Below, one piece after another: positions 7,061 through 60,296 of a stretch of 64,000 nt of DNA. The notes under the pieces are model-generated. The model ran no database searches, was not told the DNA's origin, and saw only the letters and a program-made list of their open reading frames with translations. Both the position numbers and the translations under genes were made by a program. The stretch is from Callorhinchus milii (lineage: Eukaryota). Position 1 is the stretch's first letter. Each line of letters begins with the position of its first letter. Location: contig NW_024704764.1 in NCBI RefSeq assembly GCF_018977255.1, forward strand, positions 7,192,001 to 7,256,000, given 5' to 3'.

Positions 7061-7191
7061 GGTCTTCGTTTGGACCCCACAACGAAATTCCCGGCACAAT
7101 CCTGTCAAATCCCCACGGGATCAGAGCCTGTGGCAAATCCTGGGAAAATCAACCCCAAAACAACAAGCATCAGCAGCACAGACAGAGCAGC

Positions 7192-8243
7192 NNNNNNNNN
7201 NNNNNNNNNNNNNNNNNNNNNNNNNNNNNNNNNNNNNNNNNNNNNNNNNNNNNNNNNNNNNNNNNNNNNNNNNNNNNNNNNNNNNNNNNNNNNNNNNNNN
7301 NNNNNNNNNNNNNNNNNNNNNNNNNNNNNNNNNNNNNNNNNNNNNNNNNNNNNNNNNNNNNNNNNNNNNNNNNNNNNNNNNNNNNNNNNNNNNNNNNNNN
7401 NNNNNNNNNNNNNNNNNNNNNNNNNNNNNNNNNNNNNNNNNNNNNNNNNNNNNNNNNNNNNNNNNNNNNNNNNNNNNNNNNNNNNNNNNNNNNNNNNNNN
7501 NNNNACACCCCCCCCACACACACACNNNNNNNNNNNNNNNNNNNNNNNNNNNNNNNNNNNNNNNNNNNNNNNNNNNNNNNNNNNNNNNNNNNNNNNNNNN
7601 NNNNNNNNNNNNNNNNNNNNNNNNNNNNNNNNNNNNNNNNNNNNNNNNNNNNNNNNNNNNNNNNNNNNNNNNNNNNNNNNNNNNNNNNNNNNNNNNNNNN
7701 NNNNNNNNNNNNNNNNNNNNNNNNNNNNNNNNNNNNNNNNNNNNNNNNNNNNNNNNNNNNNNNNNNNNNNNNNNNNNNNNNNNNNNNNNNNNNNNNNNNN
7801 NNNNNNNNNNNNNNNNNNNNNNNNNNNNNNNNNNNNNNNNNNNNNNNNNNNNNNNNNNNNNNNNNNNNNNNNNNNNNNNNNNNNNNNNNNNNNNNNNNNN
7901 NNNNNNNNNNNNNNNNNNNNNNNNNNNNNNNNNNNNNNNNNNNNNNNNNNNNNNNNNNNNNNNNNNNNNNNNNNNNNNNNNNNNNNNNNNNNNNNNNNNN
8001 NNNNNNNNNNNNNNNNNNNNNNNNNNNNNNNNNNNNNNNNNNNNNNNNNNNNNNNNNNNNNNNNNNNNNNNNNNNNNNNNNNNNNNNNNNNNNNNNNNNN
8101 NNNNNNNNNNNNNNNNNNNNNNNNNNNNNNNNNNNNNNNNNNNNNNNNNNNNNNNNNNNNNNNNNNNNNNNNNNNNNNNNNNNNNNNNNNNNNNNNNNNN
8201 NNNNNNNNNNNNNNNNNNNNNNNNNNNNNNNNNNNNNNNNNNN
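7192..8243. other. Assembly gaps (N runs 7192-7504 and 7526-8243)
   Basis: N characters in the sequence. Confidence 1.
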
Positions 8244-8595
8244 CACACACCCCCACACCCCCCACACACCCCGGGCCACCCCCCCCCGGGCCTGACCCCC
8301 CCCCCCCCCCCACCCCCCCCGGGGCCTGACCCCCCCCCCGGGCCTGACCCCCCGGGGCCTGACCCCCCCCCGGGCCTGACCCCCCCCCCGGGGCCTACCC
8401 CCCCCCCCGGGGCCTGACCCCCCCCCCCCCCCCCCCCCCGGGCCTGACCCCCCCCGGGGCCTGACCCCCCCCCCCGGGGCCTGACCCCCCCCCCGGGGCC
8501 TGACCCCCCGGGCCTGACCCCCCCCCGGGCCTGACCCCCCCCCCCGGGGCCTGACCCCCCGGGGCCTGACCCCCCCCCCGGGGCCTGACCCCCCC
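8244..8595. repeat. GC-rich minisatellite, unit about C6-C20-GGG(G)CCTGA
   Basis: More than 15 tandem copies of ggg(g)cctga separated by C-runs of variable length. Confidence 0.95.
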
Positions 8596-8800
8596 TCGGT
8601 CCTGTCACTCGGTACCGATCTCGGAGGCGCGAGATACGAACTCTTTTCAAACCGCCGCTTCGGGGAGCAGTGCTGTACGGCAACGCGCATGCGCAGGAAG
8701 GGCCTCCGTACAGCAACATGGTGGCGCACGGTGGGGGCGGGGTGGGCGTACCGTACGGCAATGCGCATGCGCTGCAATGGAACCTTTGACGCCTTGGGGT
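8596..8800 (-). promoter_or_regulatory. Probable PSMC3IP CpG promoter
   Basis: CpG-rich; two NRF1 palindromes GCGCATGCGC (8685-8694, 8763-8772); TTTGAA CHR-type element on the minus strand (8646-8651); E2F-like TCTCGCGCC near 8625-8633. Confidence 0.65.
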
Positions 8801-9781
8801 CGGTTTGCAGCTGATCACTGGGGGTGGGAGAGGCTATTGGCAAATGTTATTGATGGCAATTTAAATATTTTAATGATTCGGTGCTAAAGTTTGAGCGTTT
8901 TGACTCGGCCGCTGAGCGCTGTGATGAGTGGCTCAGGTGCAGCTCCGAATAATAATAATAATAATAATCCTTGCACTTGATACGGCGCCTAATCGCGTCA
9001 TTGAGACGTCTCGAAGCGCTTCACAGAGTATACTGCAACGTGTGGAGTGGACTGACTGTAAAGCTTTACAGGATTTTAAAATAGTTGTCACCTGTCATTT
9101 TCTCAAAAAAAAAACCCACTGGAAAAATAAAGGGCTATTGTTTCAGTTATTATGACTCTGGCGCCTTTGTGGGATCAGACTTTCTCCGGCCCCCTCACGT
9201 ACGCTGTCAGTCAGACCTCGATCCTTAAAATAGATTGTGTAACCAGTCATTTGAAAATCAGCAAGTTACAAAGTGTGCAATTCATCTTTTTAGAAAACGG
9301 TTTAATGAATGTTCGGTTCAAAAATAAACAAAGAAGGTGACCGTTTTCTACAAAAACATCCACATGGATCAGGTCAGCTCCGTTATTATAAACATTTCAC
9401 TCATCTGAAAACGAAAAATGTTTTGAAATGTATTTTAAATACACAAAAAGTGCTAGTTAAGATTCGCAATACATCAAACTGCACACAATTCTTACGCATT
9501 TTACACAAGACTTTACAATATTATTTCTCATCTACTATCACAACTCCAATACGGTATCTGGGATTTTAATATTCCACAACTCATGCTGCGTTAAGATTTA
9601 TTGCCCTCATGGTCTCAGGCAAGAGAAGCAGATGTCTGCTGTAAAACTAAAGCATTCTCTTGCCTTACAAGCAGCTCACCCAACCTTAAAAATATTTAAA
9701 AACAAAGAGCAATATTTACACTAAAACACAAAAGTTGCTAAATCTGGAGCAAGTTGATCAACATCAGGAAGGTGCATAAAA

Positions 9782-10137
9782 ATAATAATAGTCCTTACAT
9801 TTGACACAGCACCTTTCACGTCAGGACATCCCAAAGCGCTTCCTAGGAAAGTGCAACAGCCATGAAGTGAATGACCAATTTTATTTGGGGGATTGGTGGG
9901 AAGAACACTGGGAGAAACTCTTTCTCTTTTCACGTACTCAGGGGATCTTCAACATCCTTCTGGACAGGCAGACGGGACACCAGTTTAATGTTTCATCCGA
10001 AGAACGGCACCTCCAACAATGCAGCAGAACCACAGTATTGCTTCGGAGTAGTAGCTTAGGACTGTTCAAGTCCTGATGTGAACTTGAACCCAGAACTTCC
10101 TGCCTCCAGAGTGTGTTACAAACTGAGCCAGGCTGAT
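9782..10137 (-). mobile_element. Old tRNA-derived SINE with Deu-like domain (SacSINE1-like) and L2-type tail
   Basis: Minus strand reads cagcctggctcagtttg...gggttcaagttc (A/B boxes), then gaggtgccgttcttcggatgaaacattaaac (Deu-like), then tail gcgctttgggatgtcctgacgtgaaaggtgctg. Related fragments near 2350-2480, 21233-21355, 33348-33450, 47625-47790, 49440-49800, 54530-54620. Confidence 0.6.
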
Positions 10138-11182
10138 GTATCATTATCATGCCAAATGCTTATTGACCAGCTGTGCATTCTCATTGCTTATTTGAGCAAC
10201 AGTTAGATTCAGTCCTTAAAAAAATAGTCCAAAGGTCTGATAAACAAATCTGTCAACTCCACCTATTTAAAATATTTCCAGATTCACCATAAATAAAGGC
10301 TGCCAGAGGATGTGATTGTGGATTGAAATCTGGTCTAAAACGGATTGTGTTTCACTGCACCTACGTAGATTAAACTGGCTGCCATTTAAATCAAAGCCCC
10401 CTCCCCCCCTTTCCTGCGATGAAATAAATAGATGAAAGAATAACAGCAACATGCATTACAGCTTCAAACCCGACAGGAATTGCAATCTTCCAAGTCTTTA
10501 CCAATCCAACATTAAAGATATTTTACATTTATTTCACACAGAACAAAGTCATTAAGGCATAAGAGGATAATGAGGATCAATTGTCATTACAAGGGTTAAC
10601 ATTAAACAATTTAGGAAGAAAGACTTTCTTAGCAATCTGGACTTCAACTAGATCAAGCGCTTCTGGCTGTGGTATTGTAAAATTCTCAGATGTTCAGTTG
10701 CCAGACTGGTAAAACAAGGGAAGGTCAAATTTAAGTCCTATAATAAACGGCAAAGCTTTCTGATATTTCCCCCTGCGGACAGTTTTGACATGAATTCTGC
10801 AGCTGGGATGAGACAAAGTTAAAAACTACCAACAAATAGCTTCCATTTGTACAGCACTCATCACATCAAAATGTCCGAGGGCTTCATGGGTAATTGCTGT
10901 GTGATGACNTTTTTTTGTTGTCAGTAAATAAAATACGATAACAGAAGGTCACAGTGAAGTTGCTATGACTCAGTTTTGTCAAACTTTACAGATGGGTTTC
11001 ATCATTTATGAAAGGATGATTTAATAAGTTTGAGAAAATTTTCTTTAAAGGTTGTGCAGCAACAATGAACACTTTGTAGACACAGCCCCTCCACAAGGAC
11101 AAACTTGGGTCATTGCTGCTCCTCTCCACTGCTATCTATTACAAATCTAAATAACATTTAATTACACAAAAGTCAACACGGC

Positions 11183-11399
11183 ACTTCAGATGCTGGAAAT
11201 CTGAAATAAAAACAGAAGTCATTGGAAACACTCAGCAGCTCAGGCAGCATCTACGGAGAGAGGAATGTGAGTTAACGTTTCAAGTCGATTATCTTTCGTC
11301 AGAACTGCCACGGTCATCGATCTGAACCTTTAACTCACTTTCCTCTATCCATAGAAGCTGCCTGACCTGCTGAGTGTTCCCAGCGACTTCTGTTTTTAT
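11183..11399 (-). mobile_element. Penelope-like element terminal-repeat remnant forming an inverted repeat, with a minimal hammerhead motif
   Basis: Arms of about 84 bp at 11206-11289 and 11316-11399 are reverse complements with mismatches; minus strand reads AGTT-CTGACGA-AAG..CTT-GAAAC-GTT-AACT. Family assignment is from recalled similarity to chondrichthyan Penelope-type repeats. Confidence 0.7.
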
Positions 11400-13299
11400 G
11401 CCATTTAACTGACCTTTGCTGGTTTTTGAAATCAAACAAAAGTTCACTGGTGCTCAGAGCAGGGAATAAGTGCAATGAAGCAAAGAGGTCAGAGCCAAAC
11501 AGCTTTGACCGCAATAATGTATTATTCTAAATAAACCAATATAAATATTATAAATATATGCAATATGAATAAGTACAAGAGCAAGTGGCTCAAGTACAGC
11601 CGCAATGATTCAAAGCAATGATAAAGCGCCTGGAGCCACCAGTAATATTAGATTGCCTTTATCCAAAGTTTCAGATGAACATATCACGTGTCTCTTAAAT
11701 CTCGAGTAACAGGCTGTGTTCGGACGTTCCCTCCCCCACCCATACACACATATGTGTGTGTTTGTATATATATATATATATATATCTGATACCATGTAAA
11801 TAAAGACAGATAACAGACAAGGAAATAGTCACCACTCATTGGCAGATTCGTTCAGCTGTCTATTTCTAATACTCAAGCCCTTGGGAAAGTCCTAAAAGAA
11901 TCTGTTGAAAGTGCCATCAGTTCTGGAATCTTTTAGTTCCATTCCTGCGTCATTGCTTGCAATTTTTACTGTAAACTATCAGAATAAATCCGCTCGAGGT
12001 CAACTTTCAGAGGGCTGAAGAGGAAAAAAAAATTGAAACTAATTCTGAGGAATCTTCAGCCAGCCTTTTCAAAATGGAAATTTGTTTGGGATCTTATTCC
12101 TAGTGAGTGCTGGTAAAGATCATAGCAATTTGGCACTAGCTTTATACGACTGTCGCTTTATCAGTTCACAGAAACACTGGGTTGTGTTGACACCATCCAT
12201 CAGATATCACTGTAATTTTGTGCATTGGAGCATGAAGGAAAATTAAGACTGATCATGGTATACGAGTTAACGCACAAGGCTGGATCACCTCTGCGTGCAA
12301 TTCCCTCCTTGGACTTCAGAGAAAATATTTCGGACTCAAACCCTTCCACTGCAGGACGTATAATTTAAATATTATTGCAAAATTATACCCCTGGTCCCTT
12401 GCTGGTGTTCGAATTAATATATTTCATTAGTGCTGGAAATGGAGCGCTTTAGGATTCCCTCCTGACAAGAAAGGCATTATACCAAATGCAAAGATTACTG
12501 TGAGGATGATTATGAAATGCTTATGGTAGTAAAGGTATTGAATCCACTCGACTGGAAGATGCAAACATGGATCTGTGAAACTCACAAACTCAGTCCCTGA
12601 TGTACATTTGAAAAAGCTGAAGTGTGAATCCAATCAGCTAATTTCACTGATCTTTCCAGAAAAGGTATGGCACAATAGCATCCTGTTTTGATTAAAACAG
12701 CAAATGCTGCTTTCTCAGCCTATTGAGAAGAGGTGAATAAACAGTTTACTGTGCTACTAAGTCTACTGTGCAGGTTAGAATAAGTGTGATATCTTAAGTA
12801 CTCAGAAGTTACATCCAGGCTTGATGAAAATGAGAATCTCATTTTGCAGCACAAATAGGAGACTGACAGACATGAGGAGCTGAGCTAACCAAGTGAAGTC
12901 AGACAATTACTAACGAGGTTTAGTTATTGAAACCTATTGCTGCAGTGCCTCCTCACCTTTTCTTAAAATGGAAACCATTCAAATCAACAATGCAATTCTC
13001 AGACCAGATTTTGCTGATTTGACAGAAATTCCGAGTCAGGAGCTGGAGAATACAAGAGCTTTCCGAAACAGCTTTGAGGAAAAGGAACATATACAACAGA
13101 GCATAAACACAACCACTTCACCTTCCTGAACAATGAGATTATTTCCATCTGATGGGAAGTAATGGTGAGCGTTGGCTGAGTGCGTTCACAACAGGTTCAG
13201 CCACACGCAATGTATGGCATCAGGGCTGTTCCTGGGGTGGGGTGTCACAGGTATATGGCACAATGGTATTACGGTAACTCTATGACTTCCAGTGAGTGG

Positions 13300-13856
13300 C
13301 TACAGTGGTTTGCGATCTCGGAATATCAGCTCCGTAAAGCTACTACTGTTTTCGGGGGAGGCGGTGTTTGGATGCTGGTGCGTTCCTCTCTCCTGTGAGC
13401 TGGTGCTCTCGCACTGACTCAGCTCCGACTGGTCTAACAGTTCAAAATCATCGGCTTCCGCGTCAGTGTCCATCTCACTACTCGAGTGTTCGTGCCGAGG
13501 CTGAGCAGCGGCCCTCTGAGGATTCTGCTTCCACCCGTATTGGGTCTCCTGACTTGCGCCGGACAATGCGGCAGCCATCATTTGGTGGGCCAGCATGTTT
13601 GCCAGACCAAAGCCTTGACTACCAACAAAATTCAAGGGTGACGGCATCCCACTGAGGGAAATATCGGCGTCTATATCTTCCTGATCAGAAAACGTACTCG
13701 CATCATCCTCCTGGACTACCAGGTGATCGGGACCCGCGGGGATTCCCAGGCTGGCATCATCATCGTCGTCGACTCCAGTGACGTCGGGATTAATGGATGG
13801 GAATTCTGGAAGATCTCTGGCAAACGATTCTTCAGGATCGCTGTGGCGGTCGAGAT
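13300..13856 (-). CDS. RETREG3: RETREG3 exon 9 (LIR motif, stop)
   Basis: DLDRHSDPEESFARDLPEFPSINP...ADDFELLDQSELSQ...*. Confidence 0.95.
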
Positions 13857-19800: not shown

Positions 19801-22800
19801 AAGATCTGACAAGATCTCAAATTTATAGAACAGGCACGATCGAATGAATGGCGTCCTCTTGTGGCTTTCCTCTGATCCAGGAAAAATGTGACGAGAGGAG
19901 GTGTTAATCAGGATTCTATTGCGAGTCCTTGAATTGAACACTACCACACACCACTGTGACAGCCTGTGGTCACCATTACCAGAAGTGTTGAGACGGATTA
20001 TAAATACAAAGCCAAGCGACTTGTTCTTACCTTTGATTTCCGGCCAGATTTTGTTCCTCCAGGTGTCAGCACAGACAACGACAATCAGACTGAATGCAAT
20101 GAGGAAGAGCAGCCTCAATGAGGTCAACGCCAGAAACCTGGGGAGATAAATGAATACCATTACACCCAGAAGCAGCACCATCAGTGCACCTATTAAGGTG
20201 CAATTTATCCCAGATTTGGATAGTGGATCAAGGACCAGACCTTCTCAATCTTCATTGCACTGCAATTGACATCACACACTGTATCCCCGTGTTCACTCCT
20301 GCAAATCACTGTTAAGTGTAATGATTGCGTATTTGTTTTTGGAACATTTGCGCTAAGCAGGTCCCACAAAAAGCCATGACCAATTTATCTGGCGGTTGTT
20401 GATGTGGACATTGGGAAGAGTCCATTTCTTCCGTAATGAATGAAATCTTTAATGTCCACCACCTCCCTTCCACTCCATGATATTCGGGTTTCTAAATGCA
20501 CCACAGGATCTTGCTTAAAAGTAACCATGTAAGAATTGGATAACTAATTTCACCCACTCACATAAATGCAGATTCTTTGGAGAAAGGTGAACATACAGTA
20601 AAATCATAAATTCTAAGATAAATTTTTAGCTTCGGAGACAACAATAACACAAATGGGAGCATTTGGCTTTTCTTCAGAAACTGTTCAGCCTTTCAGAACA
20701 AGAACTGACGACACTGAGGAGAAGCTGTGAACACGTGACACCACTTGAGTTGATATTTATACAGAATGCAAGAGCAAAGCTGCAAGCTCAAAGTCTCAAA
20801 ATTTTAAATTAATACTCGTCACTAAAAAAACAGGCCAGTAACTTCATTCTACAATCTGATGGATCAATGACTGTGTTTTGCCAAGTGTTGCATTGTATTT
20901 GCACGCGAGCGCTGGAGGATTGTCACACACAACACGGATATGCAGCGGATTTAGAGCTTGGAATCTTGCAGAGTCATCACTTTTGTTTATAAATTTGTCC
21001 CAGATCTATTTGATTCACAAGATTGGTTCAGATAAAGAAGGCCTTTCAGCCTATTTGCTCTCATTTTTTCAGAATACCCCACTTTCCCTTCACAGCATCA
21101 AGCCGTTTTTTTTATTAAAAAAGTGTGTTTTCAGCCACCAAACAACCTTTCCAGTAACCTATTTTGTTTGGTCAGACACATCTGGAAACCCATTCCTATG
21201 CCTAAGATTTTCCAAGCCAGACAAAGTTCCACATGTCAGCCTGGCTTAGTTGGATGGGCACTCTCATCTCTGAGTCAGGTTTGTGGGTTTAAGCATCACG
21301 CCAGGACTTGGAACTCATATCGTCTATGCATTCATTGTCAGAGGTGCTGTCCTTCTGCTTGCAACGATATTGTGCTGCTTAGCAGACCCACCTGGAGATC
21401 TTGTGCCATGCACTCACCATCTTGAATAGTGGACCACACGGTGGAACATGATGGTGGGTGTCCTTAAAATGTTGAATTATCACCCTTCACTGTTCCAAGA
21501 GCGGAGCTTGAGGGTATCGTTTGGCAGGTTCGAGGGAACACTAACTTTTGTCTGGACTCTGTCCTGCAGGTTTGAGCCCTTACTAAGTGGAAGGCAGTTA
21601 CCAGGAAGCTGGGTGAGCAGTACCCCTCAGCACGAAATGAGCAAGAGCATTGCCACCAACTTCCTGCCCACAGCTTGGACACACATCCCTAATGATTGAG
21701 GAGTGATGGTTCCACCAGATGGAGGTACTGAGTTCGAGCAGCCGCTTCTTATCACTTTGCATGCTCATCAAAGTGGATTCCAAACCCTGGATATATGAAC
21801 ACTTGTTCACAAACCCAAACTCCAGGTAACGCCTTCCAGCAGCTGTCGTCCCAAGCTACAGAATTTCATCAGCTATTTGACGGCCTTCGTTGGTAGGAAG
21901 ATCTTTACAGGATGTGCCAGGACTTGTGACGTGCCACCACCTGATGTTCTGGAAGTCCAAGTTCAATGCCATATATCAGCACCAGCTGCTTGATCCAGGT
22001 CCTCACGTGAGGGGCTTTGGCAAATATAGAAGTTTGCCTGTGCAGCCAACTCTATCTCAAAGGTGTTCAGCAAAAGGTCAGAGCTTTCCATCCCTGCAGT
22101 TTCTTCCCCTGTTTTATCACACATCCCCTCACTGTTTGATTCTGGACTTTACAAGTTGGTTGGAGGAAGCCTCTCACTTCATTCTAAGCAGCTCAGAACC
22201 ATGAAGGAGATCTGTTTGGACACACTATTTATCTGCTGTCTTTGAAGAGAGATGAGAATGACCAGCTGATCGTCACCCCTTCTCAGCAGAACTGGAGCTG
22301 AACAGACTTCAATTGCGAGTCGCTCAGCAACAGAATGTCAGAATTGCATCAATCCTCTGTGGCAGTCTTGGTGGTTTCTGAGCCGTGCGGGTCAAGAGTC
22401 CTTCAGAGCACTGCTGATGACAAACCAACCAGCTGACTATAAAAACATCCTGAGCTTCCAGACATCCTCCCAGCATGAAAGGCACTATATCAAATGCAAT
22501 AACAGCAACACTGAAACTATCAACTTAAGCCCTCACAGGAAATTTCAACCCAGACCCACCTGTTTCTGACCCTAACCCAGAAGCAAGTACTACCAACTGA
22601 GCCAAGCTGTCACCTGACTAGAATGTTAAATCGATCTGAAAGAAAGATAAGTCGACATTTCAGGTTGCACACTTCATTTCAATTGTACCAACATCGCCCC
22701 ATCTCCTCCCCCCCACCCCACACCCACCCCCTCCGTGGAGTCCTGTAGCTCAGTGGTTAGAGCACTCGCTTTGCAAGTGAGAGACCTGAGTTCAATTCCA

Positions 22801-23089
22801 GGCAGAGGGCGAAACCTTGGGCAAGTTTCCTTACTCCACACAGAGCCTAATAATAATCCCTCCAAAACCCAAAACAATAATAAATTGGTCAATTTCAATC
22901 CACAACTGTTTGTGGGGACATTGCTGTGCGCAATCGGCCGCCGCGTTCGCCCACAAATATATACAGTCCATTCACTTTAGTGTGTTCCGTGAAGCGCTTT
23001 GGGACGTCCTCCCGACGTGAAAAGCGCTATATCAAATGCGAGGATTATTATTATTATAAGGAGGTATATCAAGTGGTAAGGATTATTGT

Positions 23090-24305: not shown

Positions 24306-33737
<9,432 letters not shown>

Positions 33738-57054: not shown

Positions 57055-57379
57055 AATAATAATAATAATAATCCTTGCATTTGATATAGCGCTTTTCACG
57101 TCGGGAGGATGTCCCAAAGCGCTTCACAGAACACACTGTAAAGTGAATTGACTGTATATTTGCGGGCGAACGCGGCGGCCAATTGCGCACAGCAATGTCC
57201 CACAAACAGTCGTAGATTGAAAATGACCAATTTATTATTGTTTTTGGTTTTGGAGGGATTATTTATTAGGCTCTGTGTGGAGTAAGGAAACTTGCCCAAG
57301 GTTTCGCCCTCTGCCTGGAATTGAACTCAGGTCTCTCGCTCGCAAAGCGAGTGCTCTAACCACTGAGTTACAGGACTCC
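57055..57379 (-). mobile_element. Full-length young tRNA-derived SINE inserted into an L2 fragment (about 56870-57535, +)
   Basis: Reverse complement is near-identical to 22735-23057; flanks rejoin as an L2 sequence (ttcaa|ggtcctt). Confidence 0.9.
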
Positions 57380-58975: not shown

Positions 58976-59559
58976 CTCCCCAACTCAGCAGCAGCTTTTG
59001 CTGTGAGATCAAAGTACTAAATATCCAGAGCAGTACTGAAAGACCTGCCCACAAGTGGAAGCAGATGATTTTGTTCAATTATCTTTGCTTCCCTCCAGCA
59101 AAAGACATTTTGTTAATCTGCCTGGCTGGCACTTAAACACCCCAAATAATCCTAACCAGGTTTATCAGTGACAGAACCAGAGAGCTTTATGAGTCCTGTG
59201 AAACTTACAGAGTCTTCTGTAAAAGGCATCTTGACAATTTATCTCACTGATAAATAATAATAATCCTTGCAATTGATATAGCGCCTTATCATGTCTTCGA
59301 GACATCCCAAAGTGCTTCACAGAATATACTGTAAAGTGACTGGATATTTTGTGGGCGAAACACGGCAGTCAATTCTGCACAGTGCCATCCCACAAACAGT
59401 CGTGGATTGAGTGACAATTTTTTTGAGGGAATTATTACCCCTGGAAAAGCGATTCACCAATCGACCTACAACTGGGTTCTGACTTACTGCTAGGTAAACA
59501 GCTGCGTGTGGAGTAAGAAAACTTGCTCAACCTTTCGCTCTGCCAGGAATCAAACCCAG

Positions 59560-60296
59560 GTCCTCTCTTTACCCTCTACATGCTCCCCCTTGGTGACGTC
59601 ATCCGCAGACATGGGGTAAATTTCCACATGTATGCGGATGACACCCAACTCTATCTCTCTGCGTCTACCCTCAACTCCAGGACTACTGGTTTCCTGACCG
59701 ACTGCCTGTCCGACATCAAGTCCTGGACGAGGGACAACTTTCTCCAACTCAATGTAAGCAAGACCGCGGCCCTCCTGATTGGCTCGCGCCAGCGCCTCCG
59801 CACCTCGGGCGCCGGCAGCATCAGCCTCCACAGCTGCACACTCAACCTCACTAAGCCAGTCAGGAACCTGGGTGTCTTGTTTGACCCCGAACTGTTCTTT
59901 CTCCCCCACATCCGCGCACTGCCTACCACCACCTCCGCAACATTGCCAGACTCCACCAGTGCCTCAGCCCTCAGGCTGCTGAAACCGTTATACCTCCATT
60001 CATCAGGCTCTGGCCTGCTCCATGTCTCCCGCCTGACCTGTCCTACCATCGGTGGCCGGGCTTTCAGCCTCTCTGCCCCCACACTCTGCATCGCCTCCCT
60101 TACCTCCTTCAAGACCGGTCTCAAGACCCTTCTCTTTGATTGTGCCTTTGGTCTCCCTCCCACCTCTCTGCCTTTCCTCACCCCTACACCACCCCTCTCT
60201 CATGCTCGGGCCCTGACACCTGACTGTTGAGAGCTTTGGGACGTCCTTCCGACGTGAAAGGCGCTCTACAAGTGTAAGTTTGTTGTTGTTGTTGTT
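59560..60296 (+). mobile_element. L2 LINE fragment (RT through 3' tail, internally deleted)
   Basis: [32 protein letters not shown]...[10 protein letters not shown]...VRNLGVLFD...IGGRAFS; stem-loop tail and (TTG)n. Confidence 0.92.

What the first reader, a model, noticed from the sequence alone, without database searches (positions are those of the whole stretch)
11183..11399. Intact minimal hammerhead-ribozyme core in the sense strand of the probable RETREG3 3'UTR
Seen: the minus strand (RETREG3 sense) reads AGTT-CTGACGA-AAG(ATAATCGA)CTT-GAAAC-GTT-AACT at about 11306-11270. That gives the CUGANGA and GAAA boxes, a 3-bp stem II, a 4-bp stem I (AGUU/AACU), a palindromic ACGU stem III and a GUU cleavage triplet. 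Known: this is the minimal type I hammerhead carried by Penelope-like element terminal repeats, which works as a dimer through the palindromic stem III. Seen: I found no canonical AATAAA/ATTAAA between the RETREG3 stop (13300) and this element; the first are at 11157-11162 and 10528-10533. Inference: the ER-phagy receptor mRNA may carry a self-cleaving module upstream of its poly(A) site, switchable by the competing long hairpin.
Basis: partly seen in the sequence, partly recalled or inferred. Interest (0 to 1): 0.72.

Follow-up and report, generated by a model that had tools for sequence, protein, structure and literature searches.

The report
Penelope hammerhead relic in RETREG3 UTR
The motif is really there, but it is the known tiny hammerhead carried by the clipped, self-inverted end of a Penelope-like jumping gene, one of thousands of such ends in this genome, and in this copy it has a damaged stem and is predicted to be folded shut, so it is likely a silent passenger in the RETREG3 messenger's tail rather than a regulatory switch.

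Summary
The motif is exactly as described (minus strand 11306-11270). It is the sense arm of a 234-bp Penelope-like (PLE) insertion: inverted 5'-truncated copy, minimal hammerhead, tail, worn 13-bp target duplication. Longer relatives carry RT and GIY-YIG remnants. The family has thousands of copies; 292 places match the intact core. An intact core is no sign of selection: 8 of 50 copies picked by their tail keep it (neutral expectation 0.14). The active fold lies about 16-17 kcal/mol above the hairpin, whose blocking arm is transcribed first, and the window holds no second copy for a dimer. Spliced RNA contigs reach the element and RNA contigs resume beyond it to about 9290, so it likely lies in the 3'UTR; no contig bridges the cut site, so cleavage is untested. 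Rfam has no hammerhead match. The motif class was described in 2014, and this scan noted the same family many times on other DNA. Ordinary; the 3'UTR position is the only twist.

The parts
11270..11306 (-). Minimal type I hammerhead motif: stem I 4 bp, CUGACGA and GAAA boxes, palindromic ACGU, GUU triplet; predicted cut between 11274 and 11273
   Evidence: sequence, pattern scan, family comparison
11282..11294 (-). Stem II and loop in the family register (5 bp, 3-nt loop, preceded by an unpaired A at 11295); three substitutions in this copy at 11292, 11290, 11283 leave A-U, G-U, mismatch, U-A, mismatch
   Evidence: no fold on its own against -4.4 kcal/mol for the commonest family form
11164..11306 (-). 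Sense arm of the PLE terminal repeat: 5'-truncated at the front edge of the hammerhead, followed by the repeat body and tail
   Evidence: alignments with 24 best and 90 tail-picked copies
11312..11399 (+). Inverted 5'-truncated partner copy; on the mRNA strand it is transcribed first and is complementary to the 3' half of the hammerhead and the repeat body
   Evidence: 5 substitutions in 84 aligned positions, two opposite the ACGU
11307..11311 (-). 5-nt spacer between the two arms
   Evidence: sequence, alignment
11164..11205 (-). About 40-nt tail present only on the sense arm
   Evidence: matches the 30-40 bp PLE tail of PMC8557442
11398..11410 (-). Probable target-site duplication, upstream copy (10 of 13 identical to the downstream copy)
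   Evidence: best of all flank pairings tried, no shuffle control run
11151..11163 (-). Probable target-site duplication, downstream copy; holds the first ATTAAA (11162-11157)
13300..13856 (-). Coding part of the last exon of the RETREG gene (stop 13302-13300; splice acceptor at 13856)
   Evidence: (joint 13856/14714)
9288..13299 (-). Probable 3'UTR of about 4 kb; distal ATTAAA at 9306-9301
   Evidence: RNA contigs of two studies cover both sides of the element and stop at 9288, 9298, 9377, 9377; weak hint only, no DNA run laid at that end

Best explanation
This is the clipped, self-inverted end of a Penelope-like retrotransposon that inserted into what is likely the RETREG3 3'UTR and carries the family's minimal hammerhead as a likely inactive passenger. 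Shown: the insertion anatomy, the high-copy family, its link to RT and GIY-YIG remnants, the decay of stem II, and the absence of a second copy in the window. Inferred: it arose by reverse transcription of the parent's terminal repeat with 5' truncation and inversion; it has since drifted about 10% from the family majority; in the mRNA the inverted arm is made first and is predicted to pair with stem II, the 3' core box, the cut site and stem I as they emerge, so the dimeric active fold would not form and the mRNA would stay uncut.
For: Family: 2,956 first-look candidates, 40 scored, the 39 other places about 80-89% identical; 400 exact matches to a 27-nt tail word; 292 exact matches to core plus 3-bp stem I, control 0. 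Neutral retention: of 90 copies picked by the tail, 50 span the motif and 8 of these keep core and ACGU; product of per-site rates 0.144; core substitution rate 0.088 against 0.097 in the rest of the arm. Stem II: 45 of 50 copies keep 4-5 pairs, this one 3; 25 of 27 intact-core copies of standard length have a more stable stem II. Folding: active-like fold 16.7 kcal/mol above the ensemble once the transcript passes 11260, 6.6-10.2 at the moment stem I completes; rank 18 of 23 scoreable intact-core copies, where the 16 without an inverted arm need 3.2-7.3 (8 of 31 could not be scored). Parent: L159 has inverted arm, YIGET-type nuclease remnant, body, hammerhead, tail; L195 adds RT motifs upstream; Pfam GIY-YIG E 0.01, below cut-off, in 1 of 4 pieces scanned. 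Literature: single minimal motifs showed no cleavage and dimers low cleavage (PMC4209133); the Anolis PLE hammerhead did not cleave without the PLE protein and no RNA-seq reads ended at its cut (PMC11167929). RNA is present on both sides of the cut site.
Against: This copy has 0 substitutions in 22 core, stem I and stem III positions against 9 in 65 others (Fisher p 0.06), though it was picked for having an intact core. The three stem II changes happen to allow a shifted 3-bp stem without the bulge. Two of the five changes in the inverted arm lie opposite the ACGU and open a small loop there; among 7 scoreable inverted copies this one has the second-lowest barrier. Nearest-neighbour energies ignore tertiary contacts, helicases and editing. 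No contig bridges the cut site, and orthologues could not be examined.
Confidence: 0.85

Rival explanations
1. The hammerhead has been co-opted: when the hairpin is opened (helicase, editing, co-transcriptional window) two motifs pair through ACGU and cut the RETREG3 mRNA ahead of its poly(A) site, lowering expression as the Clec2 hammerhead does.
For: Core, stem I and ACGU are unchanged; sense orientation between stop and probable poly(A) site; two changes in the blocking arm face the ACGU; precedent of a 3'UTR hammerhead that lowers a reporter by 80% (PMC2950038, passage).
Against: Intact cores occur at the neutral rate (8 of 50); stem II decayed; barrier 16-17 kcal/mol; no cis partner; the class is weak even as a dimer and protein-assisted in the one vertebrate PLE tested. 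With 292 intact cores, 3-6 would fall in a sense 3'UTR by chance if 3'UTRs are 2-4% of the genome (assumed figure).
Confidence: 0.04
2. The ribozyme is dead but the 84-bp hairpin matters as double-stranded RNA in the 3'UTR (A-to-I editing, binding of dsRNA proteins, effects on export or stability), in the way inverted Alu pairs do in primates (analogy recalled).
For: Hairpin is long and very stable and probably in the mature mRNA.
Against: The arms have drifted apart by 14% with no sign of maintained pairing; 42 of 90 sampled copies have such an arm. No editing could be read from contigs.
Confidence: 0.1
3. The motif is a chance match or an assembly artefact.
For: No Rfam hammerhead match; at 99% likeness no contig of three RNA-type runs or one DNA run covers 11286-11333.
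Against: 292 genome matches against 0 for the reversed control; contigs of other samples run from both flanks into the element; the tool states that a hole in contig cover proves nothing.
Confidence: 0.01

Closest known systems
Minimal hammerheads (min-HHR) in pseudo-LTRs of metazoan Penelope-like elements (Cervera and De la Pena 2014, PMC4209133; parts 1-2 of 4 read)
   Same: Type I core, helix I of 4 bp, no helix III loop with palindromic 15.2-16.2, unpaired base between 9 and 10.1 in the family, thousands of mostly single genomic motifs, pairs on opposite strands close together.
   Different: Family stem II is 5 bp and closes with A-U, not the usual G10.1-C11.1 (a minor subfamily has G-C); in this copy stem II is decayed. 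Cartilaginous fish are not named in the parts read.
Inverted, 5'-truncated insertions with tail of endonuclease-positive PLEs (Craig et al. 2021, PMC8557442; passages read)
   Same: 5' truncation, adjacent inverted 5'-truncated copy at the 5' end, 30-40 bp tail on one end, hammerhead in the terminal repeat, nuclease after the RT in longer copies.
   Different: Only about 140 bp of the sense copy is left, no coding sequence; clade (Poseidon, Neptune or other) not determined here.
Hammerhead of the Anolis Poseidon element PAc (Frangieh et al. 2024, PMC11167929; passages and part 2 of the main text read)
   Same: Vertebrate PLE terminal-repeat hammerhead with stems I and II.
   Different: PAc is an intact element tested in vitro, where cleavage needed the PLE protein; this is a host-embedded fragment.
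Discontinuous hammerhead in mammalian Clec2 3'UTRs (as reviewed in PMC2950038, PMC6765202, PMC6155905; passages read)
   Same: Hammerhead cut site between stop codon and poly(A) signal of a host mRNA.
   Different: Clec2 is a type III motif shown to cleave, conserved among orthologues and active in a reporter; this one is a minimal type I motif needing a dimer, with a decayed stem, blocked by an antisense arm, with no conservation or activity data.

Membership tests
PLE minimal hammerhead (min-HHR) | CUGANGA and GAAA core boxes with NUH triplet | tested here: met
   (GUU triplet is the family majority)
PLE minimal hammerhead (min-HHR) | No helix III loop; palindromic 15.1-16.1 | tested here: met
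   ACGU at 11278-11275
PLE minimal hammerhead (min-HHR) | Short helix I (4-5 bp) | tested here: met
   AGUU/AACU
PLE minimal hammerhead (min-HHR) | Unpaired base between positions 9 and 10.1 | tested here: met
PLE minimal hammerhead (min-HHR) | Stable helix II | tested here: not met
   Met by the family (5 bp, -4.4 kcal/mol) but not by this copy (3 of 5 pairs; 0.0 kcal/mol; shifted stem +1.9)
PLE minimal hammerhead (min-HHR) | G10.1-C11.1 pair (highly conserved in PMC4209133, not absolute) | tested here: not met
   A-U in this copy and in 71 of 80 motifs counted; G-C in 1 of 80
PLE minimal hammerhead (min-HHR) | Lies in the terminal repeat of an element with RT and GIY-YIG | tested here: met
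   For the family: L159, L181, L195; Pfam GIY-YIG only E 0.01; Atlas score 0.94-0.96 with an RVT_1 lead at 13% of one cluster
PLE minimal hammerhead (min-HHR) | Self-cleavage as a dimer | not testable with these tools
   needs a cleavage assay
Rfam hammerhead families | Match to a hammerhead covariance model | tested here: not met
   none at gathering score or at E up to 10 over 11100-11500
EN+ PLE insertion | 5' truncation with adjacent inverted copy | tested here: met
EN+ PLE insertion | 30-40 bp tail on one end | tested here: met
   11205-11164
EN+ PLE insertion | Target-site duplication | tested here: inconclusive
   10 of 13 identical at the expected places; no chance control
Clec2-type 3'UTR regulatory hammerhead | Cut site between stop and poly(A) site in the mature mRNA | tested here: inconclusive
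   RNA contigs on both sides, none bridging
Clec2-type 3'UTR regulatory hammerhead | Able to fold and cleave within one mRNA | tested here: not met
   no closed helix III, no second copy in the window, predicted barrier 16-17 kcal/mol; prediction only
Clec2-type 3'UTR regulatory hammerhead | Conserved among orthologues | not testable with these tools
   no related genomes held; all 14 listed runs are one organism

The most novel reading that the evidence does not exclude
A Penelope-derived minimal hammerhead has been domesticated as a conditional switch in the 3'UTR of an ER-phagy receptor: the inverted arm keeps it shut, two changes in that arm expose the ACGU dimer palindrome, and unwinding or editing of the hairpin lets a trans dimer cut off the poly(A) tail. 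It would be a minimal, dimer-dependent PLE ribozyme regulating a host mRNA, which I did not find in print (one search, RETREG3 plus hammerhead, 0 papers; Penelope-like plus shark plus hammerhead ribozyme, 1 irrelevant paper).
Probability: 0.04. Interest if true: 0.7.

Novelty: new member of a known kind. Interest (0 to 1): 0.13.

Why it matters
As it stands it matters little: it is one more copy of a described motif. If it did cleave in vivo, it would extend the Clec2 precedent to dimer-dependent transposon hammerheads and imply that the hundreds of intact cores scattered through such genomes can act on host mRNAs. For anyone who wants to test that idea, the non-inverted copies with a full stem II (barrier 3-4 kcal/mol, e.g. 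L127, L141, L133) are much better candidates than this one.

Tried and rejected
Rfam at gathering score and at E up to 10: no hammerhead family. Pfam on the last exon: nothing; Atlas on it: no usable hit, so the gene name rests on the RETREG domain exons and on gene order. Solved-structure search with the RT remnant: 0 hits; 3 of 4 remnant pieces gave no GIY-YIG or RT Pfam hit. My first search for the parent's body used a stretch that was again the inverted arm; one search corrected this. No full-length or intact parent was looked for or found. Sequencing runs: no holder is on record as RNA; four guessed-RNA runs proved spliced when laid. I laid 5 different runs of 14 listed. Laying at 99% likeness left 11286-11333 uncovered in RNA and DNA runs alike and cannot show or exclude cleavage; contig depths were not used as levels. 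Proximal polyadenylation at the variant signals as the only 3' end is unlikely because single contigs of three runs read through them, but minor use is not excluded. Orthologue test impossible. Lunse et al. on dimer cleavage was not held; it is cited only through a review passage. The 2026 bioRxiv retrozyme preprint had nothing on this case (passages). No supplements were opened; those of PMC4209133 may list cartilaginous-fish motifs. The place-based look-up for look-alike notes returned nothing.

Full report
Observation. The minus strand carries the motif letter for letter at 11306-11270, with the predicted cut between 11274 and 11273. It is the only such pattern match on either strand of the window, and the element has no second copy in the 64 kb apart from its own inverted arm. 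The hairpin is real: 84-nt arms, 86% complementary, -134.5 kcal/mol, z -15.5. The poly(A) statement holds, with one more ATTAAA at 11025-11020. Rfam gives no hammerhead match at gathering score or at E up to 10.

The host gene. RETREG-domain exons lie on the minus strand of the window, one of three RETREG loci in the genome. A Hop2 domain lies downstream on the same strand, tubulin exons head to head, then FERM and 7TM genes (92 stop-free pieces scanned, 8 with a hit).

Is the element in the mRNA? Fourteen runs were listed, none on record as RNA, all from one organism. Four guessed-RNA runs of two studies show joints with minus-strand intron ends at 13856/14714, 14846/15677 and four further places, so they are spliced RNA. 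In X1 and X2 one spliced contig runs from the exon at 14846-14714 to 11398 and 11364; in X5 a contig runs 13722-11372. All three read through the AGTAAA variants. Contigs resume at 11214-11215 (X1, X2) or 10952 (X5) and, after a break at another repeat near 9870, stop at 9288, 9298, 9377 and 9377; an ATTAAA lies at 9306-9301. Short exact pieces just downstream of the cut site are in X1 and X2; four of five such pieces have no exact match in the 202 other loci held, one has one. So a 3'UTR of about 4 kb that includes the element is likely. No contig bridges the cut site, and none does in the DNA run either: the break comes from the repeat and says nothing on cleavage. Strand and level cannot be read from contigs.

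What the element is. A DNA search of the genome gave 2,956 first-look candidates; of 40 scored, the 39 other places were about 80-89% identical. A 27-nt tail word has 400 exact matches, and the core with a 3-bp stem I has 292, against 0 for the reversed controls. On the stretch that both listings cover (contig 1 and 109 Mb of contig 2) I counted by eye 100 tail matches, 83 core matches and 4 shared, which points to roughly 8,000 copies genome-wide, uncertain by a factor of two to three. The window copy consists of an inverted arm (11399-11312), a 5-nt spacer, a sense arm that starts at the hammerhead (11306) and a tail of about 40 nt (to 11164), between two 13-mers that agree at 10 positions. 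Of 90 copies picked by the tail, 42 have an inverted arm (43 of 91 with the window copy). Longer copies continue upstream into a YIGET-type nuclease remnant (L159, L177, L179, L181, L183 and others), and L195 has RT motifs upstream of that; profile support is weak because the frames are decayed (Pfam GIY-YIG E 0.01 in 1 of 4 pieces; Atlas RT lead; no solved-structure hit). This anatomy is the one described for endonuclease-positive PLEs: 5' truncation, adjacent inverted copy, 30-40 bp tail, hammerhead in the terminal repeat (PMC8557442, passages).

Is the intact core special? Of the 90 tail-picked copies, 50 span the motif; 8 of the 50 keep both boxes and ACGU. The product of per-site retention rates is 0.144, and core positions change about as often (0.088) as the rest of the arm (0.097), so the family decays neutrally. 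The window copy is 10.3% from the family majority, close to the median of 9.3%. It has no change in 22 core, stem I and stem III positions and 9 in 65 others (p 0.06), but it was chosen for its intact core. Stem II tells against function: the family has an unpaired A, then a 5-bp stem with a 3-nt loop; this copy has three substitutions and keeps 3 of 5 pairs, one a G-U, where 45 of 50 copies keep 4 or 5. Compensatory change is scant in my sample: 1 of 80 motifs has G-C in place of A-U at the stem base, with a few more of that subfamily in the listing.

How it most likely behaves. The inverted arm is transcribed before the hammerhead. Forcing stems I and II with an open core costs 6.6-10.2 kcal/mol when the transcript has just reached 11270 and 16.7 kcal/mol from 11260 on; without the arm it still costs 6.7-8.3. 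Among 31 intact-core copies, 23 could be scored: the 16 without an inverted arm need 3.2-7.3 kcal/mol, the 7 with one need 11.7-40.2, and the window copy (16.1) ranks 18th. The ACGU duplex alone is worth -1.7 kcal/mol and there is no cis partner. Published data on the class point the same way: no cleavage as monomer and low cleavage as dimer (PMC4209133, parts 1-2 of 4); no cleavage without the element's protein and no reads ending at the cut for the Anolis element (PMC11167929). I therefore expect the mRNA to stay uncut (confidence 0.85). These are secondary-structure predictions; tertiary contacts, helicases and editing are not modelled. Against my reading: two of the five changes in the inverted arm face the ACGU and leave A15.1 and G16.2 unpaired in the hairpin, a post hoc oddity that does not remove the barrier.

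Comparison and novelty. The motif descends from the min-HHR class of 2014; this copy fails the stable-helix-II feature, so it is a relic of that class rather than a shown ribozyme. It shares only its position with the Clec2 3'UTR hammerhead, which is a conserved type III motif that lowers a reporter by 80% (PMC2950038, PMC6765202, PMC6155905; passages). A search for RETREG3 with hammerhead found 0 papers and one for Penelope-like, shark and hammerhead ribozyme found 1, which uses 'shark' only for the head shape. With 292 intact cores, a few sense 3'UTR placements are expected by chance (3-6 if 3'UTRs are 2-4% of the genome, an assumed figure). Earlier notes of this scan describe the same family in this and other genomes; they are unchecked and were used as leads only.

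Verdict. Observation confirmed; interpretation partly supported; new member of a known kind; interest 0.13. The domesticated-switch reading is not excluded, since cleavage and orthologues are untested, but I give it 0.04.

Noticed in passing
L031-L120 and window 11306: 35 of 91 sense arms begin 1-5 nt before C3 of the hammerhead, at its front edge and not at the cut site. In longer copies (L090, L159) this point follows a pyrimidine-rich run ending in CAG, which resembles a splice acceptor; PMC4209133 reports an intron end at helix I in Drosophila virilis Penelope. A spliced or processed template RNA could explain the pile-up; not tested.
   Followed up: partly
window 11266-11251 and 11215-11197 (minus): Two splice-acceptor-like stretches (pyrimidine run plus AG) in the sense arm, the first followed by ATG; no joint using them among the rows shown.
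   Followed up: no
window 9287-9354: A 15-bp inverted repeat encloses the distal ATTAAA (9306-9301), next to where two RNA contigs stop.
   Followed up: no
window 12309-12329 and 11180: A 21-nt deletion in contigs of X1 and X2 but not X5 and X6, and G11180T in X1, X2 and X10: 3'UTR polymorphisms.
   Followed up: no
window 22743-22805 (+) and 57311-57373 (-): tRNA-like Rfam matches of 40 and 34 bits with a broken T arm, probably heads of a tRNA-derived SINE.
   Followed up: no
window about 7100-8600: G+C-rich tandem array, partly N, between the RETREG 3' end and the Hop2-domain exon.
   Followed up: no
window 26217-28005 and 59517-60230: Decayed LINE-type reverse transcriptase fragments in the ORF list (type recalled, not tested).
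   Followed up: no
L129 and L130 (G000:C1, about 10.03 and 10.10 Mb): Two loci 99.7% identical over 1.5 kb around an intact-core copy: a local segmental duplication or assembly duplicate.
   Followed up: no
L127, L141, L133, L142, L136: Non-inverted copies with intact core and 5-bp stem II; predicted barrier only 3.2-3.7 kcal/mol. Gene context unknown.
   Followed up: partly
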